In this document: positions 34,090-64,000 of the stretch, in pieces | How positions within the stretch are numbered: position 1 is the first letter of the stretch | How the letters are laid out: every line of letters starts with the position of its first letter | NCBI GenBank assembly: GCA_963603365.1 | Contig: CAVCMI010000006.1 | Location: forward strand, 82-64,081 | Source: Oscillospiraceae bacterium | GTDB taxonomy: Bacteria; Bacteroidota; Bacteroidia; Bacteroidales; WCHB1-69 | Direction of reading: 5' to 3' | DNA: 64,000 bases | Notes under the pieces: model-generated | Told to the model about the DNA's origin: nothing | What the model saw: only the letters and a program-made list of their open reading frames with translations | Database searches by the model: none | Program-made: the position numbers and the translations under genes

Positions 34090-35028
34090 ATGAAAAAGTT
34101 CAGTTTGTTATTTTTAGCCCTTGCCGCCTCGTTTTCACTCTTCGCACAGGAAGAGGAAGAGACTACCGGCAGCACCATGAACCAGCCGGTGCGCAAGCCG
34201 GTCGAGTTCAGTTGGGAACAGGTTGACGTGGGCGAGTTTTCTGACCCTGTCGCATACCCTTCCATCCGTCAGGCAGACGTGATGTATTACTACACGGTAT
34301 GGAGAACTATCGACTTGCGCGAGAAAATCAACCACCCGCTCTATTTCCCGACGGAAACAAAAGGCACGTGGAGAAGTCTTTCGCAGGTGATTTTCGATGC
34401 CATGGATGTCCAGAATCCAGAAAAGACGGAAGGCGTGCTTCCAATCTACTCGGATGAGATGTGTACGCTTCCGTTCTCAAGGGACGAATTGAGGGGAAAC
34501 CTCTCTGAAGTGTCCCAGATCCCTGAAATCGACCTCGAAACCGGTGAAGAGATCGGCATGAAAGAGATGATTGTCGAATATGAACCGAAACAGGTCATCT
34601 CCTACAATGTGAAAGAGATATGGTATTTCGACAAACAGGCTTCACGTTTCTTTGTCCAGATCCTTGAAATCGAGCCTATCATTGAACATGAACGCCAAGG
34701 CACCTCCTCCTATGACGAAGAGGGCAGCGGCGACGAGGATGTCAGAGGGGTCATGATGAAGAAAAGGGTAGGGTACATCTACTACAATGAACTCCGTCCT
34801 TTCCTCGCCAAACAGGAGGTCTATAACGTCAAGAACAATGCTCAACGCATTTCATTCGACGACCTGATTACCTGGAAACGCGACTTCACCAGTTTCATTT
34901 ATAAGGAGGCAAATGTCTATGACCGTGACATCGCCGACTATATAGCAAATTCAAGAGACCAGCGCCTCGAATCCGAAAGAATCACTGACAAACTCCGTAC
35001 GTTTGAGAGCGACCTTTGGGAATTTTAG
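34090..35028 (+). CDS. gldN: T9SS periplasmic ring protein PorN/GldN
   Basis: Start set at ATG 34090 (MKKFSLLFLALAASFSLFAQ), because the track start 33889 lies inside gldM. Blocks WRTIDLREKINHPLYFP and VKEIWYFDKQASRF. Confidence 0.85.
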   Translation: MKKFSLLFLALAASFSLFAQEEEETTGSTMNQPVRKPVEFSWEQVDVGEFSDPVAYPSIRQADVMYYYTVWRTIDLREKINHPLYFPTETKGTWRSLSQVIFDAMDVQNPEKTEGVLPIYSDEMCTLPFSRDELRGNLSEVSQIPEIDLETGEEIGMKEMIVEYEPKQVISYNVKEIWYFDKQASRFFVQILEIEPIIEHERQGTSSYDEEGSGDEDVRGVMMKKRVGYIYYNELRPFLAKQEVYNVKNNAQRISFDDLITWKRDFTSFIYKEANVYDRDIADYIANSRDQRLESERITDKLRTFESDLWEF

Positions 35029-48483: not shown

Positions 48484-48491
48484 TAATTTTG
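48484..48491 (+). promoter_or_regulatory. Candidate -7 promoter box (TAATTTTG)
   Basis: Matches TAnnTTTG 67 nt upstream of ATG 48558. It lies in sequence paralogous to the promoter region of the giant gene. Confidence 0.35.
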
Positions 48492-48557
48492 CGCGTTCGT
48501 TCCGGGGGAGGCAATGATGCACAAAGCGGCACAGCACACGCCCGGCGGCACAACGCT

Positions 48558-49929: not shown

Positions 49930-52900
49930 ATGAAAAAATTTACATTGTCAGCCCTCTGCCTGCTCTTTGTAGCAGCCACGGCTTGCGCCCAGGGCGTTTA
50001 CCAGTTCCCGAACGCAGATTTTGAAGAATGGACCTCTTATGACGACGGCAATGCCGTGCCCGAACTATGGCACACGTTTAATACAATGCAGTGCGACTTG
50101 TTGATAGGCTGCGCCACGGCCAAGCAAAATCACAGCAACCGTGTAACAAGAGACGGCGGCGGTTATGCCCTCCAGATCTACGCCAAAAGCGTTTGGGGCA
50201 ACATTGCCAACGGCGCCATGACTACGGGGCTAACAAGAGTAGGTTCTACAACTCCGTCCAGTAATGAAAACTACAATTACGACCCTACGGGCTACCGCTG
50301 GTCTTTTCACGGCCGCCCCGACTCCATCTCTTTTTATGCGCGCAGCAGCGGCGGCATCTCCGGCAACGCCCTCTTCAAGGTGTTCATACACGACGGCAAC
50401 ACCTTTCAAGATAAAGCAGACGGCAGTTTGTCTGGGACATCATACGGCAGTATGATTTATGCTTTTCACCCCACCTCGTCGTGGGGGCGGTTTGTCAAGG
50501 AGGTTTCCTGGACAAACACCACTGCTACGCCGCAGCTGATTTTAGGTTCTTTCTCCACGAATGAGGCGGCAGGAGCGGGTTCCAGCAGCGACAAACTCGA
50601 TTTAGATGCGTTGCGCTGCATCTACGACAAGGGTCTGGCCTCACTCACCATTGGCGGCGTGAGTCAGGAAGCCATGTTGGCCACGTTCAACAATGCGGAG
50701 TTTGCCACCCATGCGGGGCTTACGGGCAACCGCACCAACTCGGGCGCAGCTGTCGCCACCTGTACGCAGCTGGTATGCTACACCTCCGACAGCGACTTTC
50801 CGCAGGTGAGCGCCACCAAACGCTCTCCGCTGGCCACCTCCATCACCGTAACACAGGCCACAATGAGCGACCCAAAAGCTACCATCACCGTCACCCATAA
50901 CGACGGTTCAACCTTTTTATATACCATATATTTCAGTGCCCATCGGCAACCTGCCACGCCGGTAATAACCACGGCGGGCAATGTGCATGCCTGCTGCGCC
51001 ACGGATGCCCTCACGCTGTCGGTATCCAACCCCAGCAACAATGCCATCCAGTGGTACCGCTTCGGCGAGCCCATCACGGGCCAAACTTCCAACAGTCTCA
51101 ACGTTTCCTTCGAAAGCCAGACTGCCGCCTCGCAGACTTACGAATATACCTGCAGGATCGACAGCAGCGGCTGCACCGCCACCTCGCAGGTCTATGCCGT
51201 GACGGTTGACTATGTGACGCCGCTCTCCAGCGCCACCGTTGCCCCCGCGAGCATCTGCGGCGCCGGCACGGTAACGTTTGCCGCCACTACTACCGCCAAC
51301 CAGGTGGTAGTATGGAAACACAACGGCATAGTGGCAGACTCCGCCATGGTGAACGCCGGCAGTGCGCGCACTTTTACGCACACCTTCACGGAGAATGACG
51401 CCGCCGGCATTTACACATACGAGTGCTATTCCAAGAATACTGCCGGATCCAACTGCCACAGCAGCGTCCGCAGCGTGGAGGTTACGCTGAATGAGATACC
51501 CGCCGCACCTGCGGTCTATTCCGACTCGCGCTGCGGGGCAGGGGAAATCTCGCTGTGGGTTTCAACCTTAGACATGGGCGACTCTGACATCTTCAGATGG
51601 TACGACAGCCCGAGCGGCGGCTCACCGCTCGCCACCGCAAACAATGACGGCAGAACCTTTACAACGACGATAAGCCAGACCACCACATTCTATGTGGAAC
51701 GCTACAATATGGCTACAGGCTGCGTGAGCGCCCGCACCGAGGTGGAGGCAAGAGTCATCACTTCTGTGCCTATGCCTACTGCCACGGTTACATCCGTGAC
51801 GCTCTGCGGGCCTGACGCTTCAGTTGAACTGGAAGCCACGCCAGCGCCGCAAACATATATATTATGGTACGCCGATGCCGATGGGCAAGATGTGGTCTTT
51901 CAAGGTTCCGTCATGTCCGTGTATGGGTCAGACGAGCCCTCCGTGCGCACTTTCTATGCTGCCGGCCATCTTGAAGGATGTCCCAGCGAGCGTTTGGCCT
52001 TCACCGTCACCACCAATGCCGTGCCCGACTTTCCCGAGGTGGTTAATGTTGGCCGCTGCGGTGCCGGCGAGGTGACATTAGAGGCTAATGGCGCCGGCAC
52101 AATCTATTGGTACGCCACCCGAGACACTGACGAGCCGATAGCCACGGGAGAGACTTTCACCACGACCATCTCGCAGACGCAAGCCTTCTTTGTGGCCGCA
52201 CGTTCTGAGGCCGGCTGTTTTAGCGGACGTTCGGAAGTTTATGGCTTTGTGCAAGAACTCCCCCAGGCGCCGCTTACGACAGACCAGTCCTATTGCGGCG
52301 CGCAGACCGTCACGCTTGATGCCAACAGCAACTATGAGCTTTCGTGGTTCAGCGATGAGGAGGGCACGCTGGCGTTGAACAGCACTGAGCAGGCCGTTTC
52401 ATCCACCACCACATTCTATGCTTTTGCCATCGACCCTCAGACCTCCTGCCGCAGCGTTGCCGCTCCGCTCACCGTGACCATCCATCCGGTGCCGGGCGTG
52501 CCCGCTACTGCCTCGCAAGTTTGTCTTGCCGGCGGCCGCATAACCCTGACGGCCGAGCCTGGAACGAACGCTACGGGCTGCTACTGGTACTTGCCCACAC
52601 AAGGGACTGTGCAAGGCACGACCTACACAACCCGCACAGTGGGCACCTACAGTGTATCTTCGTACAACGAGCATTGTGAGAGCGAATCGGTACAGGTTGT
52701 GGTGAACGCCACTCCGGACGCTCCCGTTGCCTCAGGAGACGAGCGTTGCGGTGCCGGCACTGTCATGCTGAAAGTCCAAAACCCGTCCGATGCCGCTTCT
52801 TACCTCTGGTATGCCCAGGCCCAAGGCGGCGAGCCGCTCTATACAGACTCTGCTTTCACTGTTGCAAACCTGCAGACTACCACCACCTATTATGTGGCTG

Positions 52901-55900
52901 CTTTGGTCAACGGCTGCGAGAGTCCGCGCACGGCAGTTACCGCAACAGTCAATCCGCTCCCTGCCGCCCCTATGGTATCGGGAGATATGGAAGTATGTTA
53001 CGGTCAAAGCACTATACTCACGGCCACGTTGATCAACCCCTCTGCCACCCATTGCCAGTGGCTTGGCAGTCCCAATATGGTAACGAATACTTTAACCTTA
53101 GACAACATATATGAAGACATTGTCGTCACCGTGGCTGCAGTTGACAACCTTACCTACTGCGAGAGCGAGGCCGTTACGGTGACTGTCACCATGAACCCCA
53201 CTCCTGACGAGCCTATGGTATATGACGATACGGTTTGTGCCGGCAGTCAGGTTGTGCTGCGTGCCGAACCCACGGAGCCGGAACACAGGGTGCGCTGGTA
53301 TGCCAGCCGAAACGCCACGACGGTGCTGGCAGAGGGCAACGAACTGCGCCCCGAAGGCTTGAACGTGGGAACAACCACATTCTATGCTTCTGAATACAAC
53401 ACGGCCACCGGCTGTGAGAGTGCGAGAGTGCCCGTCTACGCCGTAGTGAAGATAATGCCTGCACTGCCCGTCGTTGCCGACCTTTCCTATTGCGGCACGA
53501 GCGATGCCCAGCTCTCCATTGCCGGCGCAAGCAACGATGCTCACAGATGGTATGCCGACGCGCAGGGCAACTCCTTGATAGCCGAGGGCAACAGTTGCAC
53601 CATACGCAACGTCGCTGCAACCACTGTCTTCTATGTGGCAGCCAATCATGGCGGATGCGAAACCGCGCGGGTGCCTGTTACCGTCACCATCAACGACATT
53701 CCTGCCACGCCCATCGCCCAAGGTGACACACTTTGCTCAGCCGGGCAGGCTCAATTGACGGCCGTGCCAGCCCAAGGAACGGTCTGTCGCTGGTATGACA
53801 TAGACCTGATCAATGTAGGCAATAATGGCGACAGCCGCTCATATACCACAGAAAGCCTCGAAGAGGGAACCTATACCTATTACGTCACCTCCTACAACGA
53901 AGAAACGGGGTGCGAAAGCCAATCAGCAACTGTGAATGTACTCGTTGCCGCCCCGCTCTCTGCACCTTTCACCGAGGCGGACAGCATCTGCGGCGCCGGC
54001 ACGCTGACACTGGGCGCACGCCCGGGGAGCGACAATGTGGAATGCCGCTGGTACTTGAACGAACAACTGGTGCATACCGGAGACCACCTCGTCATTGAGA
54101 ACGCTACGAACACCGCTACTTACTTCGTTTGCCGGCACGACATGCAGAGCGGCTGCGAAAGCCAGAAGGTTGCCGTCACGGCCAAGGTGTTCCCCGTCTT
54201 CAACACCTCTTTCAGCGAAACTGTCTGCGACCGCTATACGTGGGTCAACGACACCTATACCGAGTCGGGCGACTATACCAAGACTTTCTATACGGTGAAC
54301 GGCTGCGACAGCGTAGTGACGCTGCATTTGACCGTTAACAACAGCAAGACCTCCGAGTTTGATGCCGTGGCCTGCGACCGCTATATGTGGGGCAACGACA
54401 CCTATACTGAGTCGGGCGACTATACCAAGACTTTCCAGACCGTGAACGGCTGCGACAGCGTAGTGACGATGCACCTCACCGTCAACCGTTCGACAACCGC
54501 ACAGCAAACCTTGACGCTCTGCAGCAACGAGTTGCCGGTTACTTACCACACTCTTGCCATTACGGAGGCCGGCATTTATGATGTGCATATCCAAAACCGG
54601 AACGGCTGTGACAGTCTCATCCGTCTCACCGTCGTTGTCAACCCTCAGCCTGTCGCTCCTGTTGTGTCTGACGTGGCCAAGTGCGGAGCAGGGCAGAGCT
54701 TCACCCTCCGGGCTTCGGTAGGGGAGAACGGTACTGTATGCAGATGGTACAGCACGGCAGATTCGCGGCAGAGCGCGGCTGAAGGAGCCTCGCTGGAGTT
54801 GCGCAACGTGCAGCGCGACACCGTTGTCTATGTCAGCAGTTACAATGCCGTTACCGGCTGCGAGAGCGAACGTGTTCCCGCAAGGGCTGTCGTCAACGCC
54901 ATTCCCGCCATGCCTGTTGCAGATAACCAGGAAATGTGCGGCGGCGGCACGTTTGCCTTTGAGGTTGCACCGGCTACGGAGACCAATGTCGTATTCCGTT
55001 GGTATCCGTCGCCAAATGCTGTCATGCCCATTGCCGGCGCAGGCATCACCTATGCCCCCGAAGTGTTCCAGACCACCTCATACTACGTGGAAAGCTACAG
55101 CACCGAAACGCAGTGCAAGAGCGACCGCCAGGAGGTGGTGGCCATGGTACGTGACATCCCCGCTGCGCCTTCCTTTGAACCTTACGAGTTCTGCGGTCAG
55201 GGTTCCGTAGCCCTCAACCGTCCCGAATCCGGCAACTACCGCTGGTATGCCACCGCCGACGCGGCAGAACCCCTCGCCGGCATGGAACTGAACACCATCG
55301 GCCCCGTCAGCGAAAGCGTCACCTACTACCTCAGCACCTACATCGACTATCAAAGCATTGTCTGCGAAAGCACGCAACGCGGCGCACTTCAGATAAACGT
55401 ATATCCCGCATATCAACCAAGAACCCTCTATGACACCGTCTGCCAAGGCGTGGCATACAGCAACTACGGGTACAGCAACCTTTATGAGCAGAGCGGCGAC
55501 TATACCGTTACCTTAAACCGCATATCCTCACACGGCTGCGACAGCCTCGTCACACTGCAGTTGCGGGTCAACCCTGCACAGGAAAGCCGCTTTGCCGAAA
55601 CCGTTTGCGACAGCTATGTTTGGAACGGACAGACCTATACCCAAACCGGCATCTACCAACAGACCCTCCGTACCGTCAATGGTTGTGACAGCGTAGTGAC
55701 GTTGCATTTGACCGTCAACAACAGCAAGGCCTCCGAGTTTGATGCCGTGGCCTGCGACCGCTATACGTGGGGCAACAACACCTATACGGAGACGGGCGAC
55801 TATACCAAGACTTTCTATACCGTGAACGGCTGCGACAGCGTAGTGACGCTGCATCTCATCGTCAACAACAGCAAGGCCTCCGAGTTTGATGCCGTGGCCT

Positions 55901-58900
55901 GCGACCAATACATTTGGCAGAACGACACCTATACGGAGACGGGCGACTACACCAAGACTTTCCGTACCGTCAATGGCTGCGACAGCGTAGTGACGCTGCA
56001 TTTGACCGTCAACCATCCTGTGACGGAGCAGCTGCAGGCCACCATCTGTTTAGGCGAGACTTACCGGCAGAACGGCTTTTACGTTGCCCCGACGGCAGCC
56101 GGAACAATTGTGGAGCGCCGCCAGCTTTCGTCTCTCGTAACGGGCTGCGACAGCACCGCCGTGCTCACCTTGACGGTCAATCCCTCCTACAACGAGAACA
56201 TCTCGCTGACCATCTGCAACAACGCATTGCCTTACACTTGGCGCGACACCTTGTTTGAAGACAATACCGTGTCGGGCACATATACCTTCAAGCGCCAGAC
56301 CGTCAACGGCTGCGACAGCATTGTCAGACTCTCTCTCTCCATCAGCCATGAGTACCGCGAAACCATCGATGCTCACATTTGCAGCGGAACTGTCTATGAC
56401 GCCAACGGCTTCCAAGAGTCGGAAACAGGCACATACCAGCAACAACTCACGGCCGTCAACGGCTGCGACAGTGTTGTAGTGCTCAACCTTACTGTCCACG
56501 AGCCCGTTGTCACCACATTAAACGCCACAGTCTGCCAGAGCGAACGTTACACCGGAAACGGCTTTGATGTCCTGATCGGCGAGGCGGGCACAACACAGCA
56601 CGAGCGCAACCTCCGTACCGTCAACGGCTGTGACAGTACCGTAATACTCACGCTTACCGTTCACCCGACCTACAGTTTCGCCGAGACTGCCGAGACCTGC
56701 GACAATGTCCCATACGTATGGCGAGGACACAGCAACGTCACCATCCCGACAGTTGCCGGCAAGTATACGCTCTACGACAGACTGACCACGGAAAACGGCT
56801 GCGACAGCATCTACAAGTTGACCCTCACTGTCCATCCGACCTACAGTTTCGCCGAGACTGCCGAGACCTGTGACAATGTCCCATACGTATGGCGAGGACA
56901 CAGCAACGTCACCATCCCGACAGTTGCCGGCACGTATACGCTCTACGACAGGCTGACCGCGGCGAGCGGCTGCGACAGCATCCACAAGTTGACCCTCACC
57001 GTCCATCCGACCTACATTTTTGCAGAGACTGCCGAGACTTGCGACAACGAGCCCTACGTATGGCAAGGACACAGCAACGTCACCATCCCGACAGTTGCCG
57101 GCACTTATACGATCTACGACAGGCTGACCGCGGCGAGCGGCTGCGACAGCATCCACAAGTTGACCCTCACCGTCCATCCGACCTACATTTTTGCAGAGAC
57201 TGCCGAGACTTGCGACAACGAGCCCTACGTATGGCAAGGACACAGCAACGTCACCATCCCGACAGTTGCCGGCACTTATACGATCTACGACAGGCTGACC
57301 GCGGCGAGCGGCTGCGACAGCATCCACAAGTTGACCTTGACCGTGAAGCCGGTGAAATACAAGGATGTTTATGCCGAAATCTGTCATGGTGACATCTACA
57401 CTTTCAACGGAAGGATATATGACGAAACCGGCGACTACAGCGCGACGCTCACCTCTTCTGCAATGTGCGACTCCGTAGTGACGCTGCACCTGACCGTCAA
57501 TCCCGTCTATCACATTGACACGGCCATCTACATCTGTCAGGGGGCGTTGCCGTACGCATTCGACAACGACCACATATTCACGCAAGCCGGCAACTACACC
57601 GTCTCTCTGACCTCGCAAAGCGGATGCGACAGCGTTTATAGCATCGAACTGTTTGTTACCCCTTATGCACGCCTTGCCGAAAGGGCAACGGTGTGTTCTG
57701 ATGAACTGCCGTATTTGTTCAAGGGGCAAAGTTACACGCAGTCGGGGGTTTACGAAATTACCGAGGTGCAAGACAACGGCTGCAACGTGATCACCACTTT
57801 GACCCTCACGGTCAATCCGTCGTACAAACAATACGACACGGTTACCGTTTGCCAGAACAGGATGCCGTACCTTTACGATGCCAACCGCCTCTTGAGCCGT
57901 GCCGGCAACGACACGATTCACTACCGCACCGTAAAGGGTTGCGACAGCACCGTGATTGTGACTTTGTTTGTGCAGTCCAATCCGGTCTCTTCAGACACAC
58001 GCTATGTCTGCGAGAACGAACTCCCGTTGCAGTACGGCGACAGTACCATCTCCGAAGCCGGCAGGTATGAAGTCGTTTTCCGCCGTGCGGATGCTTGCGA
58101 CAGCATCGTCACGCTTAATGTAGCAGTATATCCGACATACAATGCCACGGAGAGCCTTGTCCTATGCCGGAGCGAGCTGCCTTATGCTTGGCGCGACACC
58201 ACCTTCATGGAGGGCACAAGCAGCGGCAACTATGTGTTCCGCCGCACCAGCGTCAACGGCTGCGACAGCATCACCACGCTGGCCTTGACGGTGAACAGCA
58301 CTTACCGCATAGAGGAGACTGTTGAGGTTTGCGAGGGCGAGCCTTTTGTGTGGCAGGGGCATGCCGGCGTGAACATTCCAGCCACCCCAGGCACATATAC
58401 GCTTTATGACAATCTGACCACTGCCGGCGGATGCGACAGCGTTCACGTGTTGAACTTCACCGTTAACCGCGCTTACCATTTCGAGGATACCGCCACCGCG
58501 CGCGAAGACAGGCCGTTTGTTTGGCAGGGACATGCCGGCGTGACCATCCCGACCGTTGAAGGCACTCACGTCGTCTATGACAGGCTGCAGACCGCCGAGG
58601 GTTGCGACAGCGTCTATAAACTCACCCTTACCGTCTTCAGAACGTTCTACCACGAGAGCAGCGTTTCCGTCTGCGAGAACGAACCTTATGTTTGGGAAGG
58701 CCATAGCCGCATACAGATTCCGACCGCCCCGGGCACCTATGTCCTTTATGACAGCCTGCTCACCCGCGACGGCATGGACAGTGTCTATAAACTCACGCTG
58801 ACCGTCAATCCCGTCTACTATGCTGAAATGTCTGATGCAGTCTGCAACAACGAGCCGTACATCTGGCAAGGCCACAGCAATGTGAGAATACCGGAACTCC

Positions 58901-60513
58901 CGGGCAATTACACCCTTTACGACAGTCTGACCACCGCCAGCGGCTGCGACAGCGTGTTCTGTCTCAAGCTTACGGTGTCGCCGGCATACCTTATAAGTGA
59001 GAATGTAACCGTCTGTTCCGTCGAAACACCCTATCTGTGGCACGGAAAGTCTTTGGTTGCCACGGGTGTCTATTACGACAGCTTGACCGCCGCCGGAGGC
59101 TGCGACAGCGTTTATGTGCTCCGTCTCACCGTCAACCCATCCAACACCTACCGCAGCAGCGACATCGAACTTTGTCAGGGTGAAACGGCCACTTGGCGCG
59201 GCCGCACGCTTTCTGAAAGCGGCACATATACTGACACGGTGAGCAACATCTATGGCTGTTTTGATTACTACACGGTGAATGTGCTGGTGCATTCCCCATA
59301 TCACATCGCAACGGCTGACACGGTGTGCAGCAGTGAGCTGCCTTACGTATGGCATAACTATACGATGAACGAGAGCGGAACCCGCACGGTGAACCTGCAG
59401 ACGGCCGACGGCTGCGACAGCATCCTCACCTTCACGCTTACAGTGCTGCCGTCGTACAGCTACACCGAAAACATCACCGTGTGCGCTACCGAAACACCTG
59501 TCGTATGGCACGGCAGAAGCTTCTCCGCTTCGGGCACTTTCTATGACAGCCTGGCTACGGTGAACGGCTGCGACAGTGTCTATCGCCTTAACCTTGTGGT
59601 CAATCCGAACGTTTCGCAGGCAGACACGGCCGTGGTGTGCGACACCCAGCTGCCTTACGTGTGGCGCGGACGCCAGCTGATGGCCTCGGGTGTATATATC
59701 GACACGGTGCCCAACAACTATGGATGCACAGACCGTTATATGCTGAACCTTACGGTGAACCGGAGTGCTGTGACCACCATTATGGATACCATTTGCCAAG
59801 GCGACCGCTACCAGCAGAACGGCTTCGATACGCTGCCGACCCAGTACGGGATGATATATTTGCAGCAGCGCCTGCAGTCGGCACAAGGCTGTGACAGCAC
59901 CGTTAACATAGTCTTGACCGTGAACAGAAACTATGAAATTCCCACGGTGGCTGCCACTTGCGACAATGTGCCTTACGAATGGCGCGGCAGGCATTATGAA
60001 CAGGCCGGCACCTACTACGACACGTTGCAGGCTTCTACGGGTTGCGACAGCGTCTTCGTGCTTATGCTGACACTCAATCCTACCTATGAGGTGTTGGTCG
60101 AGGACTCCGCATTGCGTGAACATGCCTATACCAACTACGGACTTGACTTTACGCCGATGGAAGAGGGCGACTTCGTGTACACCATTCAGTATTACACCGT
60201 TGACGGTTGCGACAGCATTGTCAAGCTCACACTCCATGTGGCTTTCAACTATGGCATTGACGATTTGGACGAGACGGTGCAGTTCAGCATCTACCCGAAC
60301 CCGGCTACGACAAATGTCCACATTGAAGGCAGGTTTATGGAAGAGATTTACCTCTATGACATGAACGGAAAACTGGTGGCCGCCAAACGCGCCGACAGTG
60401 ATACGAACACCGGGATCTATGTCGGGAACCTTCCTGCCGGCTACTACATGCTGCGCATCAGGCTGACAGACGGCAGCACCATTGACAAGAAAGTCATAGT
60501 GCGGACCCGATAG
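49930..60513 (+). CDS. Giant (3527 aa) modular cell-surface protein, T9SS type A cargo
   Basis: Uninterrupted ORF. Signal peptide (ATACAQ), then a PCMD-like N-domain. By my count about 16 Ig-like modules (CGAG...WY...YYV...GCES.R..V.A.V) and about 33 two-Cys modules ending GCDS..(L/V).LTV. C-terminal Por_Secre_tail-like CTD. Confidence 0.85.
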   Translation: MKKFTLSALCLLFVAATACAQGVYQFPNADFEEWTSYDDGNAVPELWHTFNTMQCDLLIGCATAKQNHSNRVTRDGGGYALQIYAKSVWGNIANGAMTTGLTRVGSTTPSSNENYNYDPTGYRWSFHGRPDSISFYARSSGGISGNALFKVFIHDGNTFQDKADGSLSGTSYGSMIYAFHPTSSWGRFVKEVSWTNTTATPQLILGSFSTNEAAGAGSSSDKLDLDALRCIYDKGLASLTIGGVSQEAMLATFNNAEFATHAGLTGNRTNSGAAVATCTQLVCYTSDSDFPQVSATKRSPLATSITVTQATMSDPKATITVTHNDGSTFLYTIYFSAHRQPATPVITTAGNVHACCATDALTLSVSNPSNNAIQWYRFGEPITGQTSNSLNVSFESQTAASQTYEYTCRIDSSGCTATSQVYAVTVDYVTPLSSATVAPASICGAGTVTFAATTTANQVVVWKHNGIVADSAMVNAGSARTFTHTFTENDAAGIYTYECYSKNTAGSNCHSSVRSVEVTLNEIPAAPAVYSDSRCGAGEISLWVSTLDMGDSDIFRWYDSPSGGSPLATANNDGRTFTTTISQTTTFYVERYNMATGCVSARTEVEARVITSVPMPTATVTSVTLCGPDASVELEATPAPQTYILWYADADGQDVVFQGSVMSVYGSDEPSVRTFYAAGHLEGCPSERLAFTVTTNAVPDFPEVVNVGRCGAGEVTLEANGAGTIYWYATRDTDEPIATGETFTTTISQTQAFFVAARSEAGCFSGRSEVYGFVQELPQAPLTTDQSYCGAQTVTLDANSNYELSWFSDEEGTLALNSTEQAVSSTTTFYAFAIDPQTSCRSVAAPLTVTIHPVPGVPATASQVCLAGGRITLTAEPGTNATGCYWYLPTQGTVQGTTYTTRTVGTYSVSSYNEHCESESVQVVVNATPDAPVASGDERCGAGTVMLKVQNPSDAASYLWYAQAQGGEPLYTDSAFTVANLQTTTTYYVAALVNGCESPRTAVTATVNPLPAAPMVSGDMEVCYGQSTILTATLINPSATHCQWLGSPNMVTNTLTLDNIYEDIVVTVAAVDNLTYCESEAVTVTVTMNPTPDEPMVYDDTVCAGSQVVLRAEPTEPEHRVRWYASRNATTVLAEGNELRPEGLNVGTTTFYASEYNTATGCESARVPVYAVVKIMPALPVVADLSYCGTSDAQLSIAGASNDAHRWYADAQGNSLIAEGNSCTIRNVAATTVFYVAANHGGCETARVPVTVTINDIPATPIAQGDTLCSAGQAQLTAVPAQGTVCRWYDIDLINVGNNGDSRSYTTESLEEGTYTYYVTSYNEETGCESQSATVNVLVAAPLSAPFTEADSICGAGTLTLGARPGSDNVECRWYLNEQLVHTGDHLVIENATNTATYFVCRHDMQSGCESQKVAVTAKVFPVFNTSFSETVCDRYTWVNDTYTESGDYTKTFYTVNGCDSVVTLHLTVNNSKTSEFDAVACDRYMWGNDTYTESGDYTKTFQTVNGCDSVVTMHLTVNRSTTAQQTLTLCSNELPVTYHTLAITEAGIYDVHIQNRNGCDSLIRLTVVVNPQPVAPVVSDVAKCGAGQSFTLRASVGENGTVCRWYSTADSRQSAAEGASLELRNVQRDTVVYVSSYNAVTGCESERVPARAVVNAIPAMPVADNQEMCGGGTFAFEVAPATETNVVFRWYPSPNAVMPIAGAGITYAPEVFQTTSYYVESYSTETQCKSDRQEVVAMVRDIPAAPSFEPYEFCGQGSVALNRPESGNYRWYATADAAEPLAGMELNTIGPVSESVTYYLSTYIDYQSIVCESTQRGALQINVYPAYQPRTLYDTVCQGVAYSNYGYSNLYEQSGDYTVTLNRISSHGCDSLVTLQLRVNPAQESRFAETVCDSYVWNGQTYTQTGIYQQTLRTVNGCDSVVTLHLTVNNSKASEFDAVACDRYTWGNNTYTETGDYTKTFYTVNGCDSVVTLHLIVNNSKASEFDAVACDQYIWQNDTYTETGDYTKTFRTVNGCDSVVTLHLTVNHPVTEQLQATICLGETYRQNGFYVAPTAAGTIVERRQLSSLVTGCDSTAVLTLTVNPSYNENISLTICNNALPYTWRDTLFEDNTVSGTYTFKRQTVNGCDSIVRLSLSISHEYRETIDAHICSGTVYDANGFQESETGTYQQQLTAVNGCDSVVVLNLTVHEPVVTTLNATVCQSERYTGNGFDVLIGEAGTTQHERNLRTVNGCDSTVILTLTVHPTYSFAETAETCDNVPYVWRGHSNVTIPTVAGKYTLYDRLTTENGCDSIYKLTLTVHPTYSFAETAETCDNVPYVWRGHSNVTIPTVAGTYTLYDRLTAASGCDSIHKLTLTVHPTYIFAETAETCDNEPYVWQGHSNVTIPTVAGTYTIYDRLTAASGCDSIHKLTLTVHPTYIFAETAETCDNEPYVWQGHSNVTIPTVAGTYTIYDRLTAASGCDSIHKLTLTVKPVKYKDVYAEICHGDIYTFNGRIYDETGDYSATLTSSAMCDSVVTLHLTVNPVYHIDTAIYICQGALPYAFDNDHIFTQAGNYTVSLTSQSGCDSVYSIELFVTPYARLAERATVCSDELPYLFKGQSYTQSGVYEITEVQDNGCNVITTLTLTVNPSYKQYDTVTVCQNRMPYLYDANRLLSRAGNDTIHYRTVKGCDSTVIVTLFVQSNPVSSDTRYVCENELPLQYGDSTISEAGRYEVVFRRADACDSIVTLNVAVYPTYNATESLVLCRSELPYAWRDTTFMEGTSSGNYVFRRTSVNGCDSITTLALTVNSTYRIEETVEVCEGEPFVWQGHAGVNIPATPGTYTLYDNLTTAGGCDSVHVLNFTVNRAYHFEDTATAREDRPFVWQGHAGVTIPTVEGTHVVYDRLQTAEGCDSVYKLTLTVFRTFYHESSVSVCENEPYVWEGHSRIQIPTAPGTYVLYDSLLTRDGMDSVYKLTLTVNPVYYAEMSDAVCNNEPYIWQGHSNVRIPELPGNYTLYDSLTTASGCDSVFCLKLTVSPAYLISENVTVCSVETPYLWHGKSLVATGVYYDSLTAAGGCDSVYVLRLTVNPSNTYRSSDIELCQGETATWRGRTLSESGTYTDTVSNIYGCFDYYTVNVLVHSPYHIATADTVCSSELPYVWHNYTMNESGTRTVNLQTADGCDSILTFTLTVLPSYSYTENITVCATETPVVWHGRSFSASGTFYDSLATVNGCDSVYRLNLVVNPNVSQADTAVVCDTQLPYVWRGRQLMASGVYIDTVPNNYGCTDRYMLNLTVNRSAVTTIMDTICQGDRYQQNGFDTLPTQYGMIYLQQRLQSAQGCDSTVNIVLTVNRNYEIPTVAATCDNVPYEWRGRHYEQAGTYYDTLQASTGCDSVFVLMLTLNPTYEVLVEDSALREHAYTNYGLDFTPMEEGDFVYTIQYYTVDGCDSIVKLTLHVAFNYGIDDLDETVQFSIYPNPATTNVHIEGRFMEEIYLYDMNGKLVAAKRADSDTNTGIYVGNLPAGYYMLRIRLTDGSTIDKKVIVRTR
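54211..54495 (+). repeat. Two about 141-bp two-Cys modules, near-identical to the modules at 55591-56015
   Basis: Translation FSETVCDRYTWVNDTYTESGDYTKTFYTVNGCDSVVTLHLTVNNSKTSEFDAVACDRYMWGNDTYTESGDYTKTFQTVNGCDSVVTMHLTVN. The nucleotide sequence is largely shared with block B. Confidence 0.7.
55591..56015 (+). repeat. Three about 141-bp two-Cys modules (block B of an intragenic segmental repeat)
   Basis: ...NNSKASEFDAVACDRYTWGNNTYTETGDYTKTFYTVNGCDSVVTLHLIVNNSKASEFDAVACDQYIWQNDTYTETGDYTKTFRTVNGCDSVVTLHLTVN. Confidence 0.7.
56650..57333 (+). repeat. Four in-frame tandem 171-bp (57-aa) units; units 3 and 4 are identical
   Basis: The unit 'cat/cac ccg acc tac' anchor recurs at 56662, 56833, 57004 and 57175, exactly 171 nt apart. 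Units 3 (56992-57162) and 4 (57163-57333) read identically, except that the last few nt differ (ctcacc vs ttgacc). Confidence 0.9.
60277..60510 (+). other. Segment encoding a T9SS type A CTD (Por_Secre_tail, TIGR04183-like)
   Basis: VQFSIYPNPATTNVHIEGRF...IYLYDMNGKLV...LPAGYYMLRIRLTDGSTIDKKVIV. Confidence 0.8.
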
Positions 60514-60615: not shown

Positions 60616-60643
60616 CCGGCTTTTTTGATAAAAACGAAACTTG

Positions 60644-63600
60644 ATGAATGAGAAGATCAACGTTGGAATAGACATAGGTTCAACGACTGTAAAAATAGTG
60701 GTTCTGGGCAGTCAGAAAAATGTAGTTTATACCGACTACCGCCGCCACAACATGAACATCCGCGAAACAGTAATGCGGGCAGTTTCTCCGATAGCGGAGC
60801 GTTGCAAGGGAAGCCGTCTCAAGGTTGCCGTCACAGGTTCCGTCGGAATGGGCTATGCCGAATGTTGGGGGATGCCCTTTGTGCAGGAGGTCATTGCAGC
60901 CGCCTCGCTGGTGAAAAGCCGCTTCCCCGAAACCAAGACATTCATTGACATCGGCGGCGAGGACAGCAAGATGATTTTCTTTGAGCAGGGCAGAGTGCCC
61001 GACATCCGAATGAACGGCAACTGCGCCGGCGGCACCGGCGCCTTTATCGACCAGACGGCCACCCTTCTCAACATCGAGCCCTCAGAACTCAACACCTTGG
61101 CGGAGCATGCCGAGACGGTCTATCCGATTGCCTCGCGCTGCGGCGTCTTCTCCAAAACAGACATTCAGAACCTGCTGGCGCGCCATGTCAGCAAAGAGAA
61201 TGTGGCCTTGTCGGTGTTCCATGCCGTGTCGCTTCAGGTCATCGGCACACTTTCAAGAGGACTTGACGTGAAGTCGCCCGTCTTCTTCTGCGGCGGCCCG
61301 TTCGCCTTTCTGCCGATGCTCAAGAAGGTGTTCCTCGAAAACCTGCACCTTTCCGAAGAGGATTGCATAGCGGTGCCTGACGCTAAGGTTGTGCCGGCGT
61401 ATGGCGCAGCGATGATGGCGGAAACGTCTTCAAAAGAGGACTGCTCTCTTGAGGATTTTATCTATAAAATTGAAAACCTTACCATTGACCGAGACACCGC
61501 GCTCAACAACAACAGTCTGCCGCCGCTCTTCAATGACCGGCAGGATTTTGAAGACTGGATGCATAAGAAGCAGAACTTCTTTGTGCCGCGCGTAACGTGG
61601 GAGCAACTCGACGGCAATACCGTTTTTGTAGGGGTGGACTCGGGCTCCACCACCACGAAGCTGGTGGTGCTGGACCGCATGGGGCGCATGCTTTACCGCG
61701 ACTACCGCAACAACCAAGGCGACAGTTTCGGAACATTCCTCAATGCGCTCAAGGGGTTCAGGGATGCCTGCAACGAGCACGGCTTCAAACCGGCCATTGC
61801 CGGCAGCGCCGTCACGGGCTATGGCGAGAACCTCCTCAAAACGGCTTTCGGGCTGCATTACGGCGTAGTGGAGACGATGGCGCACTATATGGGCGCCAGA
61901 AGCGTGTCGCCCGAGGTCTCTTTCATCCTCGACATCGGCGGCCAGGACATGAAGGCCATATTTGTGGAGAACAAGGCCATTCGCCGACTCGAGATCAACG
62001 AGGCCTGCTCCTCGGGCTGCGGCTCTTTCATAGAGACCTTTGCCCGCATGATGGGCTACACCGTCTCGGAGTTTGCGCAGATAGCATGCAAAGCCCGGCA
62101 CCCTTACGACCTCGGCACGCGCTGTACCGTCTTCATGAACTCCAAAGTGAAGCAGGCAATGCGCGAGGGCGCGCACCCCGAAGACATCTCCGCCGGCTTC
62201 GCCTATTCGGTCATCAAGAACTGCCTCTTCAAGGTGCTGAAACTGCGGCAGACCAAAGAACTGGGCGACCATATCGTGGTGCAGGGCGGCACTTTCAAGA
62301 ACCTTGCCGTGGTGAGGGCTCTGGAACTGCTCACCGAGAGGGAGGTGCGTTTCTCCGACATCCCCGAACTGATGGGCGCTTACGGCTGCGCACTCTTTGC
62401 CAAGGAACACCCTGCCGAGCACGTGCTTACGCTCGATGACCTGCTCTCCATACAGCAGTTTGAGACGGAACCGCAAGTGTGCCCGGGCTGCCCCAACCAC
62501 TGCACCGTGCTTTGCTACAAGTTCTCGAACGGACGCAGCTACTATTCCGGCAACAACTGCGAGAAGGTGTTCACCAATGAGACGGAGGTCACCGTCAAGG
62601 GGCGCAACCAGCATCACGAGCGGCTCAAGCTTCTATTCGGCAGGCCTCCCGGAGAACAGGCCAAACTGCGAATCGGCATTCCGCGTGCGCTCGGCATGTT
62701 CGAACTCTATCCGTTTTGGCATACCCTCTTCACAGAGTGCGGCTTCGCAACAGTGCTCTCCGGACCCTCAACCAACAAGCAGTACGAACAAGGACTCCAT
62801 ACAGTGATGTCCGAGAATATATGTTTCCCCGCCAAACTGATGCACGGTCACGTCTTCGACTTGGCAAAGCGCAGCGTTGACCGTATCTTTTATCCGTTCA
62901 TCGTGATGGAGCATCAGGCTGACGCCAGGGTGCGCAACAGTTACAACTGCCCCATCGTGGCAGGATACTCCGATGTGATGAAGAACGCTGTCGACACGGA
63001 GGCGCGCTTCAACATCCCCTTTGACGCTCCGGTCGTTTCTATGAACAACAGTTCGTTTATGCGTCAGAGTTGCCGCGACTATCTCAAGAGTCTTGGCGTT
63101 GACAGACGAACGGCTGACCGGGCGATAGACGCTGCCATGAAAGTGCAGCAGGCCTTTCTTGACACCCAGCACAGCCGCGCAACCGAGATTGTGAAACAGG
63201 CCGAGGCTGACGGCCGGATGACCGTAGTGCTGGCTGGAAGGCCGTACCATTCCGACCCGCTGGTGCAGCACAAGATTTCGGACGTGCTCGCCGACATGGG
63301 CATCGATGTGGTCACCGAGATGGTGGCCGGCGACAATGACGCCGAGGTCTATCGCGAGCTGGACTCCGTGACGCAGTGGACTTATCCTAACCGCATCTTC
63401 AAGGCCGCACACTACGTGGCCAACAGCAACGGCAATGTACATTTTATGATGATTACCTCGTTTGGCTGCGGCCCCGACGCCTTCATCATCGACGAAGTAC
63501 ACGACATCCTCGGCCGGAAAGGCAAGAGTTTGACCTTGCTGAAGGTTGATGACGTGAACAACATCGGCTCTTTGCGCCTCAGGGTACGCTCCATGGTGGA

Positions 63601-64000
63601 GAGTCTGCAGTTCAGCCGGCAGGAAAAAGTGAACCTGCCGTTTGTCACTACGCCGCTGTTTCAGGCTCAAGACCGCAGGCGTACCATACTCGCGCCTTAC
63701 TTTGCAGGAGGCTATTCGGAGTTCATTCCCACCCTCTTCAAGATGGCCGGCTACCGCCTTGTGACCTTGCCGTTAGGCGACCGCGAGTGTGTGGAACTGG
63801 GCCTGCAGTATGCCAACAACGAAGTCTGCTATCCCGCCACCATCGTGGTGGGCAGCCTCCTCAAAGCGTTGCGCAGCGGCGACTACAACTTGGACGACAC
63901 CGCCGTCATCATCACACAGACGGGCGGACAGTGCCGGGCCACCAACTACATTATGTTGATAAAGAAAGCGCTGGTGGCGGCGGGCTTCGGCAATGTGCCC
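60644..64000 (+). CDS. Fusion protein, 3'-truncated by the window edge: two BcrAD/BadFG-type activase ATPase domains plus a 2-hydroxyacyl-CoA-dehydratase-like (HgdB/D-type) domain
   Basis: Open from ATG 60644 to 64000 (1119 codons, no stop) and absent from the supplied ORF track. Has INVGIDIGSTTVKIVVL and VFVGVDSGSTTTKLVVL ATPase starts, NGNCAGGTGAFID / NEACSSGCGSFIE blocks, a CPGCPNHCTVLC linker, and then MSENICFPAKLMHGHV. Confidence 0.85.
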   Translation, partial: MNEKINVGIDIGSTTVKIVVLGSQKNVVYTDYRRHNMNIRETVMRAVSPIAERCKGSRLKVAVTGSVGMGYAECWGMPFVQEVIAAASLVKSRFPETKTFIDIGGEDSKMIFFEQGRVPDIRMNGNCAGGTGAFIDQTATLLNIEPSELNTLAEHAETVYPIASRCGVFSKTDIQNLLARHVSKENVALSVFHAVSLQVIGTLSRGLDVKSPVFFCGGPFAFLPMLKKVFLENLHLSEEDCIAVPDAKVVPAYGAAMMAETSSKEDCSLEDFIYKIENLTIDRDTALNNNSLPPLFNDRQDFEDWMHKKQNFFVPRVTWEQLDGNTVFVGVDSGSTTTKLVVLDRMGRMLYRDYRNNQGDSFGTFLNALKGFRDACNEHGFKPAIAGSAVTGYGENLLKTAFGLHYGVVETMAHYMGARSVSPEVSFILDIGGQDMKAIFVENKAIRRLEINEACSSGCGSFIETFARMMGYTVSEFAQIACKARHPYDLGTRCTVFMNSKVKQAMREGAHPEDISAGFAYSVIKNCLFKVLKLRQTKELGDHIVVQGGTFKNLAVVRALELLTEREVRFSDIPELMGAYGCALFAKEHPAEHVLTLDDLLSIQQFETEPQVCPGCPNHCTVLCYKFSNGRSYYSGNNCEKVFTNETEVTVKGRNQHHERLKLLFGRPPGEQAKLRIGIPRALGMFELYPFWHTLFTECGFATVLSGPSTNKQYEQGLHTVMSENICFPAKLMHGHVFDLAKRSVDRIFYPFIVMEHQADARVRNSYNCPIVAGYSDVMKNAVDTEARFNIPFDAPVVSMNNSSFMRQSCRDYLKSLGVDRRTADRAIDAAMKVQQAFLDTQHSRATEIVKQAEADGRMTVVLAGRPYHSDPLVQHKISDVLADMGIDVVTEMVAGDNDAEVYRELDSVTQWTYPNRIFKAAHYVANSNGNVHFMMITSFGCGPDAFIIDEVHDILGRKGKSLTLLKVDDVNNIGSLRLRVRSMVESLQFSRQEKVNLPFVTTPLFQAQDRRRTILAPYFAGGYSEFIPTLFKMAGYRLVTLPLGDRECVELGLQYANNEVCYPATIVVGSLLKALRSGDYNLDDTAVIITQTGGQCRATNYIMLIKKALVAAGFGNVP

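What the first reader, a model, noticed from the sequence alone, without database searches (positions are those of the whole stretch)
55421..60249. About 33 copies of a compact two-cysteine 'C...W...G.Y...GCDS..(L/V).LTV' module that I cannot match to a named domain
The modules are 47-80 aa long. They share:
- an N-terminal Cys, often in the context C(D/E)N.PY.W.G;
- a central aromatic/Gly core (G.Y);
- a terminal (N/S/G)GCDS followed by a beta-strand ...L.LTV(N/H)P.

Degenerate copies replace GCDS with GCNV, GCFD, GCTD, GMDS or MCDS, which shows which positions tolerate change. Three further copies lie at 54211-54650. The length classes (47, 57 and about 75 aa) suggest a conserved core with variable loops. 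This may be an undescribed or poorly described disulfide-stabilised repeat family typical of Bacteroidales adhesins.
Basis: seen in the sequence. Interest (0 to 1): 0.6.

Follow-up and report, generated by a model that had tools for sequence, protein, structure and literature searches.

The report
Disulfide-laddered mini-domain stalk, unnamed family
Nearly half of a giant secreted surface protein of a gut-type Bacteroidota bacterium is 33 copies of a very common but uncatalogued 50-residue beta module, and its two cysteines most likely tie each module to the next one, not to itself, making a stiff, probably sugar-coated stalk.

Summary
The repeat is real. Gene 49930-60513 (+) encodes a 3527-aa T9SS type A cargo: signal peptide, unassigned head domain, 16 Ig_7 domains, 33 two-Cys modules and a sorting domain. 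There are 30 modules at 55414-60243 and 3 at 54199-54642, so 33 in total, not 33+3. They are 47-57 aa long; there is no ~75-aa class.

No Pfam, NCBIfam or PDB sequence matches the module. The family is nevertheless very large: 30,876 representative proteins, with up to about 100 copies per protein.

- Across 250 relatives, loss of C1 in module i goes with loss of C2 in module i+1 (7905 both present, 454 both absent, 20 discordant).
- Loss is never shared within a module.
- DCA puts C1(i)-C2(i+1) first by a factor of three. It also shows beta1 parallel to beta5, which places the two Cys of one module at opposite poles.
- In this protein, R2858 and M2949 are such a co-lost pair, and the last module lacks C1.

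AF2 folds four modules at pLDDT 95. The best structural match is the GhpA grappling-hook stem, which has inter-domain disulfides and glycans.

The conserved D-S-[IVT] after C2 matches the Bacteroidota O-glycosylation sequon.

Caveats: no coordinates were available, and the genome has no recognisable Dsb or VKOR genes.

The parts
49930..60513 (+). Gene for a 3527-aa T9SS type A cargo protein (P0001)
   Evidence: Single ORF. Por_Secre_tail PF18962 E=3.9e-13 and TIGR04183 E=1.6e-10. A 97%-identical homologue, P0007, is in GCA_963596145.1.
49930..49989 (+). Signal peptide (aa 1-20, MKKFTLSALCLLFVAATACA|QG)
   Evidence: Read from the translation. The cleavage site before Gln is inferred.
49990..50949 (+). 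N-terminal head domain (aa 21-340), unassigned; presumed distal tip
   Evidence: No Pfam hit at E<=10 and no PDB hit. 67% identical to the stand-alone upstream gene 48489-49631.
50950..54195 (+). 13 Ig_7 (PF19081) domains, aa 341-1422
   Evidence: Pfam Ig_7 E=4.4e-129 with 15 stretches. jackhmmer delimits 16 copies in the whole protein.
54199..54642 (+). Module block A: 3 two-Cys modules (m01-m03, aa 1424-1571)
   Evidence: Module HMM hits of 54-68 bits; alignment.
54649..55407 (+). 3 further Ig_7 domains, aa 1574-1826
55414..60243 (+). Module block B: 30 two-Cys modules (m04-m33, aa 1829-3438), head to tail without linkers
   Evidence: AF2 on aa 3018-3225 gives pLDDT 95.3 and five strands per module.
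56656..57344 (+). Four 171-bp (57-aa) near-identical tandem modules (m12-m15); recent expansion
   Evidence: TRF: period 171, 4.0 copies, 94% matches. P0007 has one more 57-aa unit (58 gap positions).
58501..58503 (+). Arg2858 in place of C1 of module m23
   Evidence: Forms a co-lost pair with Met2949.
58774..58776 (+). Met2949 in place of C2 of module m24 (GMDS): partner of the missing C1 of m23
   Evidence: The same R/M pair is kept in homologues P0006-P0009.
60289..60501 (+). T9SS type A C-terminal sorting domain (aa 3454-3524)
   Evidence: PF18962 and TIGR04183.

Best explanation
The 33 modules are copies of a very widespread but uncurated ~51-residue all-beta mini-domain of Bacteroidota secreted surface proteins. 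In this protein they form the cell-proximal part of a long stalk. The C-terminal sorting domain is the end that T9SS attaches to the cell surface. The stalk therefore holds the 16 Ig_7 domains and the unassigned N-terminal head away from the cell.

Each module has five strands. Beta1 runs parallel to beta5, beta4 is antiparallel to beta5, and a beta2-beta3 hairpin carries the Y.W.G core. C1 sits at the end of beta1, at the 'top' pole beside the module's C-terminus. C2 sits just before beta5, at the 'bottom' pole beside its N-terminus. The two Cys of one module therefore cannot meet.

Instead, C1 of module i pairs with C2 of module i+1 across every junction, most likely as a disulfide. This gives overlapping, interleaved loops: a two-rail covalent ladder along the array. 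Such a ladder should stiffen the junctions and sharply limit extension and proteolytic unravelling.

The almost invariant D-S-[I/V/T] directly after C2 matches the Bacteroidota general O-glycosylation sequon. Each module probably also carries a glycan.

Shown here: the repeat, its family size, the Cys co-variation, the contact pattern and the confident fold.
Inferred: the chemical nature of the link (disulfide), the glycosylation, and the stalk role and orientation.
For: Repeat and family:
- 33 copies score 44-77 bits.
- The profile finds 30,876 representative proteins at E<=1e-3 and 8,185 at E<=1e-30. My own HMM finds up to 104 copies per protein.
- Partner domains in relatives include the type A sorting domain (PF18962), the type B sorting domain (PF13585), or no recorded Pfam family at all.

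Cys pairing:
- C1(i) x C2(i+1) on full-length modules gives [[2559,0],[2,106]], p=4e-189. The intramodule table is [[4117,423],[373,1]]. C2(i) x C1(i+1) is not coupled (p=0.31).
- With all hits: 7905 both present, 454 both absent, 20 discordant. The 454 fall into 242 clusters at 60% identity in 87 proteins, with dozens of different replacement pairs (S/Y, V/A, N/A, A/Y, S/F...).
- Mean-field DCA on 5986 neighbour pairs (Meff 3815) scores C1(A)-C2(B) at 12.0; the next coupling scores 3.7.
- The next inter-module couplings, leaving out same-position ones, cluster at the same junction: A51-B38, A13-B2, A14-B40, A10-B38.
- C1 is missing in 43% of array-final modules against 8.8% of internal ones.
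- In this protein, R2858/M2949 are a co-lost pair and the last module lacks C1.

Fold:
- DCA strand pairings (4-45, 6-45, 8-47, 10-49 parallel; 29-47, 31-45, 33-43 antiparallel) agree with AF2 DSSP. pLDDT is 95.3 for four modules and 87.4 for one.

Precedent:
- The best Foldseek hits are the GhpA neck and stem (9flp E=3.7e-8, 9flw E=7e-7).
- The GhpA preprint reports many intramolecular disulfides between nearby Ig-like domains, and glycans on all of them (10.1101/2024.01.29.577165).

Sequon:
- D-[ST]-[AILVMT] occurs at positions 41-43 in 90.8% of 10,560 modules and in 30 of the 33 modules here.
- The protein has 57 sequons against 15.6+/-3.6 expected from composition.
- The motif is as stated in PMC8550257.

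T9SS context: porP-porKLMN lies at 29060-35028 in the window.
Against: - The prediction tool gave no atomic coordinates, so the S-S distance in the AF2 model could not be measured. The link is inferred from co-variation, not seen.
- The genome (97.7% complete) has no hit to DsbA, DsbB, VKOR or Thioredoxin_4. The organism looks like an anaerobic gut Bacteroidales. How some 30 ordered disulfides would be made is therefore open. Disulfides are documented in the envelope of anaerobically grown P. gingivalis (PMC12635249).
- C2 of the first module of an array is still kept in 86% of cases. It is kept in 140/140 cases after an Ig_7 domain. Its partner there is unidentified.
- At module-to-Ig_7 junctions, 10 modules lack C1, yet only 1 of the 81 following Ig_7 domains lacks its C2. 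The rule may not carry over to Ig_7.
- The similarity to GhpA is structural only, with low TM scores (0.33-0.36), and comes from a multi-domain array. One module alone has no significant PDB match.
- Glycosylation rests on a motif match alone.
Confidence: 0.75

Rival explanations
1. One reading: each module is an independent disulfide-stabilised mini beta-sandwich whose own two Cys are bonded to each other.
For: There are two Cys per module, each ~91-92% conserved. Intradomain Cys pairs are the commonest arrangement in small extracellular repeats (general knowledge).
Against: - Both Cys of the same module are lost together in only 1 of 4914 modules (odds ratio 0.026).
- Intramodule DCA scores are -0.69 and -0.44.
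- Beta1 is parallel to beta5, which puts C1 and C2 at opposite poles.
- m23 and m24 each keep one 'orphan' Cys in this protein and in its homologues.
Confidence: 0.03
2. C1(i) and C2(i+1) do touch at the junction but are not oxidised in vivo. They would act as a packed thiol pair, or as part of a metal site together with the neighbouring Asp. The stalk would then be held by non-covalent junctions only.
For: No DsbA, DsbB, VKOR or Thioredoxin_4 gene is found in the 97.7%-complete genome. The habitat is probably anaerobic. Co-variation proves contact or joint function, not bond chemistry.
Against: - Two thiols alone make a poor metal site.
- Replacement pairs are mostly small or polar plus aromatic or aliphatic (S/Y, A/Y, S/F, V/A). 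This looks like filling the space of a lost cystine, not keeping a ligand.
- The strict all-or-none co-loss (454 against 20) is typical of disulfides, where an unpaired Cys is harmful.
- The solved GhpA stem shows real inter-domain disulfides.
- Envelope disulfides exist in anaerobically grown P. gingivalis.
Confidence: 0.12
3. The modules are not a passive stalk. Each would be a ligand-binding (lectin-like or adhesive) unit, and the array a multivalent binding surface.
For: There are conserved surface aromatics (Y17, W19, Y24, Y30). Sequence is diverse between modules (mean pairwise identity 36%). Other genes of the same genome also carry modules.
Against: - DCA places W19, Y24, L46 and L48 in mutual contact, as a core and not a binding face.
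- The most conserved positions are the junction Cys and the sequon, not a pocket.
- In relatives the same module is combined with unrelated heads and other domains, as expected for a spacer.
- Copy number varies between near-identical strains.
Confidence: 0.1

Closest known systems
Ig-like stem and neck repeats of GhpA, the T9SS-secreted grappling-hook protein of Aureispira sp. CCB-QB1 (PDB 9flp, 9flw; bioRxiv 10.1101/2024.01.29.577165)
   Same: Giant T9SS cargo. Long head-to-tail array of small all-beta domains forming a straight, rigid stem. Intramolecular disulfides between neighbouring domains, and glycans on every domain. Best Foldseek match of the four-module model (E=3.7e-8 and 7e-7, probability 1.0).
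   Different: - No detectable sequence similarity: module profiles A1 and A4 do not hit any GhpA chain at E<=10, and identity in the structural alignment is 17%.
- TM scores are low (0.33-0.36).
- GhpA has about 52 repeats, and the one published Cys pair is 152 residues apart. Here the pair is ~80 residues apart with a ~51-residue period.
- GhpA forms a heptameric tube. Nothing here bears on oligomerisation.
Ig_7, 'Ig-like domain CHU_C associated' (Pfam PF19081), present 16 times in the same protein
   Same: Same protein and same kind of array. Same layout of landmarks: 'P..P' start, first Cys at position ~12, a G-C-(D/E)-S motif just before the last strand, and an alternating hydrophobic last strand.
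   Different: - Ig_7 is ~80 aa, against ~51 aa for the module.
- Pfam Ig_7 does not match the modules.
- hhalign of module against Ig_7 profiles gives probability 5%, with only the 12-column GC(D/E)S patch aligned.
- Ig_7 has E-S rather than the D-S sequon.
- Its Cys are 97% and 99.9% conserved, so its pairing could not be read from co-loss.
PKD domain (e.g. PDB 1l0q, Methanosarcina surface-layer protein)
   Same: A weak local resemblance, 'Y..sG.Y.v.L.v.n.nG.DS', to the F strand and F-G loop of PKD (E=0.36). An A'-G-like parallel pairing of the first and last strands.
   Different: Not significant, and it disappears with the deeper profile A4. There is no Pfam PKD hit at E<=1. The module is too short for the full two-sheet PKD sandwich.
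Covalently cross-linked stalk domains of Gram-positive adhesins (isopeptide, ester or thioester Ig-like repeats, e.g. the Mobiluncus mulieris giant adhesin, PMC10619420)
   Same: Same engineering idea: a very long tandem-domain stalk reinforced by one covalent cross-link per repeat (abstract seen).
   Different: There the cross-links lie within each domain and form autocatalytically. Here the link is a Cys pair that spans the junction between consecutive domains. The proteins are unrelated in sequence and use a different secretion route.

Membership tests
T9SS type A cargo protein | C-terminal sorting domain matching PF18962 / TIGR04183 above the curated cut-off | tested here: met
   PF18962 49.9 bits (cut-off 27); TIGR04183 40.8 bits (cut-off 23), aa 3454-3525.
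T9SS type A cargo protein | Sec signal peptide, and a T9SS machinery encoded in the genome | tested here: met
   N-terminal hydrophobic signal. porP, porK (FGE-sulfatase fold), porL, porM and porN at 29060-35028 in the same window.
Ig_7 (PF19081) | The modules match the Ig_7 profile, or are related at profile-profile level | tested here: not met
   The 16 Ig_7-type copies that jackhmmer delimits lie at aa 341-1826, outside the module blocks; Pfam counts 15 Ig_7 stretches. hhalign A1 against A3 gives probability 5% over 12 columns.
PKD domain (PF00801 / PF18911) | Significant match to a PKD profile or to a solved PKD domain | tested here: not met
   No Pfam PKD hit at E<=1. 1l0q matches only at E=0.36 with A1, and is absent with A4.
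SprB repeat (PF13573) | Match to the SprB repeat profile | tested here: not met
   No hit in P0001 at E<=1. In relative P0054 the SprB repeat is a separate region at aa 214-248.
GhpA-type disulfide-linked Ig-like stem | Structural similarity of the array to the solved GhpA stem or neck | tested here: inconclusive
   The four-module model hits 9flp and 9flw at E=3.7e-8 and 7e-7, but TM is 0.33-0.36. A single module has no hit below E=0.3. There is no sequence match.
GhpA-type disulfide-linked Ig-like stem | Disulfides between neighbouring domains, not within a domain | tested here: inconclusive
   Co-loss (7905/454/20) and the top DCA coupling show that C1(i) and C2(i+1) are a functional pair across the junction. 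The bond itself was not observed, because no coordinates and no chemistry were available.
Bacteroidota general O-glycosylation substrates | Sequon D-(S/T)-(A/I/L/V/M/T) in a protein exported to the periplasm | tested here: met
   The sequon follows C2 in 30 of 33 modules and in 90.8% of 10,560 family modules. The motif is as given in PMC8550257.
Bacteroidota general O-glycosylation substrates | Glycan actually attached to the Ser/Thr | not testable with these tools
   Needs glycoproteomics. The only indirect support is the glycan density on all the Ig-like domains of GhpA.

The most novel reading that the evidence does not exclude
The ~51-aa module may be a phylum-wide, so far undescribed building block (more than 30,000 representative proteins) with its own construction rule. 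Every junction would be stapled by C1(i)-C2(i+1). The disulfide loops would then overlap, and the chain would become a two-rail covalent ladder. Each rail would run beta5(i)-beta1(i+1) and then jump through a cystine. The array could then stretch only about 1.4-fold even if fully unfolded, and it would carry one O-glycan per rung. This would be a new solution to building 100-nm-scale, inextensible, protease-resistant surface fibres from a single polypeptide. It would apparently be made even by anaerobes that lack the classical Dsb machinery.
Probability: 0.55. Interest if true: 0.75.

Novelty: new variant of a known kind. Interest (0 to 1): 0.6.

Why it matters
**An annotation gap.** A domain found in tens of thousands of protein clusters, up to ~100 times per protein, has no entry in Pfam or NCBIfam and no solved structure. 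Many 4000-5000-aa Bacteroidota proteins are therefore recorded with no domains at all. Naming the module would annotate a large share of the 'dark' sequence of gut, rumen and environmental Bacteroidota surface proteins.

**An unusual and testable structural principle.** Junction-spanning, interleaved Cys pairs would explain how these bacteria build long, rigid stalks from one chain. They give a concrete prediction for mass spectrometry, force spectroscopy and structure determination.

**An open biochemical question.** It is unclear how ordered disulfides are formed in anaerobes without DsbA, DsbB or VKOR.

**Variation between strains.** The near-perfect tandem units and the copy-number difference from a 97%-identical strain show that stalk length varies on short time scales.

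Tried and rejected
- Pfam-A and NCBIfam scans of the whole protein found nothing on the modules at E<=1.
- I checked whether newer Pfam families listed for relatives (PF28078, PF27267 and others) cover the modules. They are not in the local Pfam copy, and they are absent from the closest homologues' precomputed lists.
- PDB profile searches with A1 and A4 gave only chance-level hits: 1l0q PKD at E=0.36, then SPT5 at E=0.72. I considered a PKD relationship and dropped it.
- hhalign of the module against Ig_7 gave probability 5%. Homology is not demonstrable.
- Foldseek with a single module gave nothing below E=0.3.
With a four-module query it returned only 3 MAG contigs with uninformative or doubtful titles. 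I therefore did not establish a species-level identity. 'Bacteroidales' rests on the names of relatives.
- I tried to read the Cys pairing of Ig_7 domains from co-loss. It was uninformative, because the Cys are 97% and 99.9% conserved.
Co-variation and DCA served as substitutes.
- Literature searches found no description of this module (GCDS + T9SS; Ig_7, tandem repeat, disulfide; SprB, Ig-like, disulfide).
- Same-position couplings between neighbouring modules (46-46, 19-19, 24-24) were set aside as a subtype or duplication signal, not contacts.
Full report
**1. What is there**

The finding lies inside one ORF, 49930-60513 on the + strand, encoding 3527 aa. In order, the protein has:
- a signal peptide;
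- an N-terminal domain of about 320 aa with no Pfam or PDB match;
- 13 Ig_7 domains (PF19081, delimited);
- three two-Cys modules (aa 1424-1571);
- three more Ig_7 domains (aa 1574-1826);
- thirty two-Cys modules without linkers (aa 1829-3438);
- a T9SS type A sorting domain (PF18962 E=3.9e-13, TIGR04183 E=1.6e-10).

The T9SS core genes porP and porKLMN lie in the same window at 29060-35028. A stand-alone paralogue of the head domain (67% identity) lies directly upstream at 48489-49631.

**2. Check of the observation**

I cut the array at the 'GCDS...L.LTV' anchors and aligned the pieces.
- This gives 33 modules of 47-57 aa.
- The consensus is P.Y....T.tIC...PY.W.G..y..sG.Y...L.T.nGCDS[IVT].L.LTVn.
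- Mean pairwise identity is 36%, ranging from 14% to 98%.
- An HMM of the copies scores each one at 44-77 bits.

Two details are not. There are 30+3 copies, not 33+3. There is no ~75-aa class; the ~80-aa units are the Ig_7 domains.

At DNA level, m12-m15 are a 171-bp tandem array with 94% matches, and m05-m07 are a 147-bp array. A 97%-identical homologue from another assembly (P0007, GCA_963596145.1) is 58 aa longer, which equals one extra 57-aa unit. Copy number therefore varies between close strains.

**3. Is it a named domain?**

No, as far as these libraries show.
- Pfam-A and NCBIfam give nothing on the modules at E<=1.
- The precomputed, newer Pfam annotations of the closest homologues list only PF18962 and PF19081. 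Many relatives of 4000-5000 aa have no Pfam family on record at all.
- PDB profile searches with the 33 copies (A1) and with 100 diverse modules (A4) give only chance-level hits.
- Profile-profile comparison with the protein's own Ig_7 domains aligns only the 12-column GC(D/E)S patch, at probability 5%.
- Three literature searches found no description.

**4. How common is it?**
- The 51-position profile finds 30,876 representatives of 50%-identity clusters at E<=1e-3, and 8,185 at E<=1e-30. My own HMM finds up to 104 modules in one protein.
- Relatives pair the array with type A (PF18962) or type B (PF13585, CHU_C) sorting domains. Many have no recorded Pfam family at all. Where sources name them, they are Paludibacteraceae, Bacteroidales or Bacteroidetes.
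- The window's own 2.04-Mb genome has 55 module matches, 22 of them outside this gene. Several sit at contig ends.
- In an even sample of the phylum, 28 of 301 genomes and 22 of 144 genera have the module. These include other orders and classes.

**5. The cysteines**

This is the main result, and it overturns the intramodule reading. I extracted modules from 250 relatives with the window's HMM.

Conservation and co-loss:
- Both Cys are 91-92% conserved.
- Within a module they are essentially never lost together (1 of 4914; odds ratio 0.026).
- Loss of C1 in module i is coupled to loss of C2 in module i+1: [[2559,0],[2,106]], p=4e-189.
- C2(i) and C1(i+1) are not coupled (p=0.31).
- With all hits the table is 7905 both present, 454 both absent, 20 discordant.
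- The 454 co-losses fall into 242 clusters at 60% identity in 87 proteins, with dozens of replacement pairs. The commonest combine a small or polar residue at C1 with Tyr, Phe, Ala or Thr at C2. They are therefore many independent events, not one inherited accident.
- Several of the 20 exceptions are one-column alignment shifts.

Direct-coupling analysis:
- Mean-field DCA on 5986 unique neighbour pairs (Meff 3815) puts C1(A)-C2(B) first at 12.0. The next coupling is at 3.7.
- The intramodule C1-C2 scores are negative.
- Apart from same-position couplings, the next inter-module couplings all lie around the same junction: A51-B38, A13-B2, A14-B40 and A10-B38.

Array ends and junctions with Ig_7:
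- C1 is missing in 43% of array-final modules against 8.8% of internal ones.
- When nothing recognisable follows, C1 is kept in 60% of modules. When an Ig_7 domain follows, it is kept in 88%.

This protein obeys the rule:
- m23 has Arg2858 for C1 and the next module, m24, has Met2949 for C2.
- That pair is conserved in homologues P0006-P0009.
- The last module, m33, has lost C1.

**6. Fold and geometry**

The DCA intramodule contacts define five strands:
- beta1 (positions 3-11) is parallel to beta5 (43-51), with pairs 4-45, 6-45, 8-47 and 10-49;
- beta4 (29-36) is antiparallel to beta5, with pairs 29-47, 31-45 and 33-43;
- a beta2-beta3 hairpin around W19-x-G21 packs W19 and Y24 on L46 and L48.

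AlphaFold2 gives mean pLDDT 95.3 on aa 3018-3225 (four modules), using 47 homologous four-module windows. It predicts exactly these five strands per module. A single module with 99 homologues gives pLDDT 87.4 and the same strands.

Because beta1 and beta5 are parallel, C1 (end of beta1) lies at the pole where the module ends. C2 (start of beta5) lies at the pole where the module begins. C1(i) therefore meets C2(i+1) at the head-to-tail junction, while the two Cys of one module are a domain length apart. This geometric step is my inference from the contact map. The tool does not release coordinates, so I could not measure the distance.

**7. Closest structure**

Foldseek with the four-module model finds the cryo-EM structures of GhpA first. 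GhpA is the T9SS-secreted grappling-hook protein of Aureispira (9flp E=3.7e-8, 9flw E=7e-7, probability 1.0, TM 0.33-0.36, 17% identity).

The preprint describes the stem as follows (10.1101/2024.01.29.577165):
- 52 Ig-like repeats;
- glycan densities on all the Ig-like domains.

This is a solved precedent for the principle. There is no sequence similarity, the spacing differs, and a single module has no significant PDB match. I therefore treat GhpA as the closest analogue, not as the same family.

**8. The 'DS' of GCDS**

- Positions 41-43 are D (95%), S (95%) and I/V/T/L (95%).
- 90.8% of 10,560 modules fit D-[ST]-[AILVMT] there.
- This is the Bacteroidota general O-glycosylation motif as stated in PMC8550257.
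- In this protein 30 of 33 modules carry it after C2, and 17 also have a second sequon upstream ('YDSL'-type).
- The protein has 57 sequons in all, against 15.6+/-3.6 expected from composition.
- The motif is kept when the Cys is lost (GYDS, GMDS). It therefore serves a role of its own.

Glycosylation itself is an inference.

**9. Mechanism proposed**

After Sec export the array folds in the periplasm. Each junction is locked by C1(i)-C2(i+1), and the Ser after C2 is O-glycosylated. T9SS then exports the folded protein and attaches its C-terminus to the surface.

The modules would form the proximal stalk, the Ig_7 domains the distal stalk and the unassigned head the tip. At roughly 3 nm per module, the 33 modules alone would span on the order of 100 nm. 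That figure is an estimate from strand lengths.

The overlapping loops make a two-rail ladder. Each rail runs beta5(i)-beta1(i+1), about 23 residues, and then crosses a cystine to module i+2. Even a fully unfolded array could therefore lengthen only about 1.4-fold. This last step is pure inference.

**10. Caveats**

- The genome is 97.7% complete but has no Pfam-level DsbA, DsbB, VKOR or Thioredoxin_4 (with positive controls in named genomes). The oxidant is therefore unknown.
- Envelope disulfides do exist in anaerobically grown P. gingivalis (PMC12635249).
- C2 of the first module of an array is mostly retained (86%; 140/140 after an Ig_7 domain), without an identified partner.
- The Ig_7 Cys are too conserved to test.
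- At module-to-Ig_7 junctions the co-loss rule does not visibly hold.
- One module (m25) has a third, unexplained Cys.

**11. Relation to earlier notes of this scan**

I made the co-loss and DCA analyses. A word search then showed that follow-up agents on other genomes had reached the same reading: an unnamed ~51-aa module, junction-spanning Cys pairs, an O-glycosylation motif and GhpA as the closest structure. Those are unchecked AI notes and I do not count them as evidence. Each claim was re-derived here on this protein's own relatives.

**12. Verdict**

- 'Uncurated family' is supported. 'Intramodule disulfide' is not.
- The most likely reading is a glycosylated, junction-stapled stalk module.
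- Novelty: a new variant of a known kind, namely tandem beta-domain stalks of T9SS cargo with inter-domain disulfides as in GhpA.
- Interest is 0.6. The family is very large, uncatalogued and has an unusual, directly testable architecture. This particular instance is one more member of it.

Noticed in passing
window 56656-57344: Four 171-bp (57-aa) tandem modules with 94% matches. A 97%-identical homologue from another assembly (P0007, GCA_963596145.1) has one extra 57-aa unit. Stalk length is therefore polymorphic between close strains.
   Followed up: partly
window 48489-49631 (+): A stand-alone gene encodes a 67%-identical copy of the giant protein's signal peptide and N-terminal head domain, with no stalk or sorting domain. 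The head has no Pfam or PDB match.
   Followed up: partly
window 29060-35028 (+): A T9SS core operon: porP/sprF, porK (FGE-sulfatase fold), porL, porM (four GldM domains) and porN. It lies about 15 kb upstream of the cargo gene.
   Followed up: yes
own genome (G000), whole: No Pfam-level DsbA, DsbB, VKOR or Thioredoxin_4 in a 97.7%-complete 2.04-Mb genome. Yet it encodes at least 55 modules with conserved Cys pairs. The source of oxidising power is unexplained.
   Followed up: partly
window 52492-54900: Ig_7 domains at aa 855, 1011, 1258, 1344 and 1574: Five of the 16 Ig_7 domains carry a third Cys in the 'C(R/Y/Q)W(Y/L)' strand. This is column 30, a Cys in 29% of 983 Ig_7 domains of relatives. 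Ig_7 1177 and Ig_7 1344 have further odd Cys. Their partners are unknown.
   Followed up: no
window 58960-58962 (aa 3011, 'VFCLK' in module m25): An extra, third Cys in the last strand of one module, with no obvious partner.
   Followed up: no
G000: C17:8-286, C22:38-313, C21:30017-30256: Other module-bearing genes of the same genome sit at contig ends. These repeats probably break the assembly, and the true module count is probably higher.
   Followed up: no
L001 (CAVEXN010000015.1): An 89%-identical homologue lies on a MAG contig titled 'Oscillospiraceae bacterium'. That label is implausible for a T9SS cargo gene and suggests a mislabelled or contaminated bin.
   Followed up: no
window 60641-64000 (+): Downstream ORF running off the window: a fusion of BcrAD/BadFG-type activase ATPase domains with a DUF2229 (dehydratase-like) domain. 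The Pfam families were seen on the homologous locus L004.
   Followed up: no
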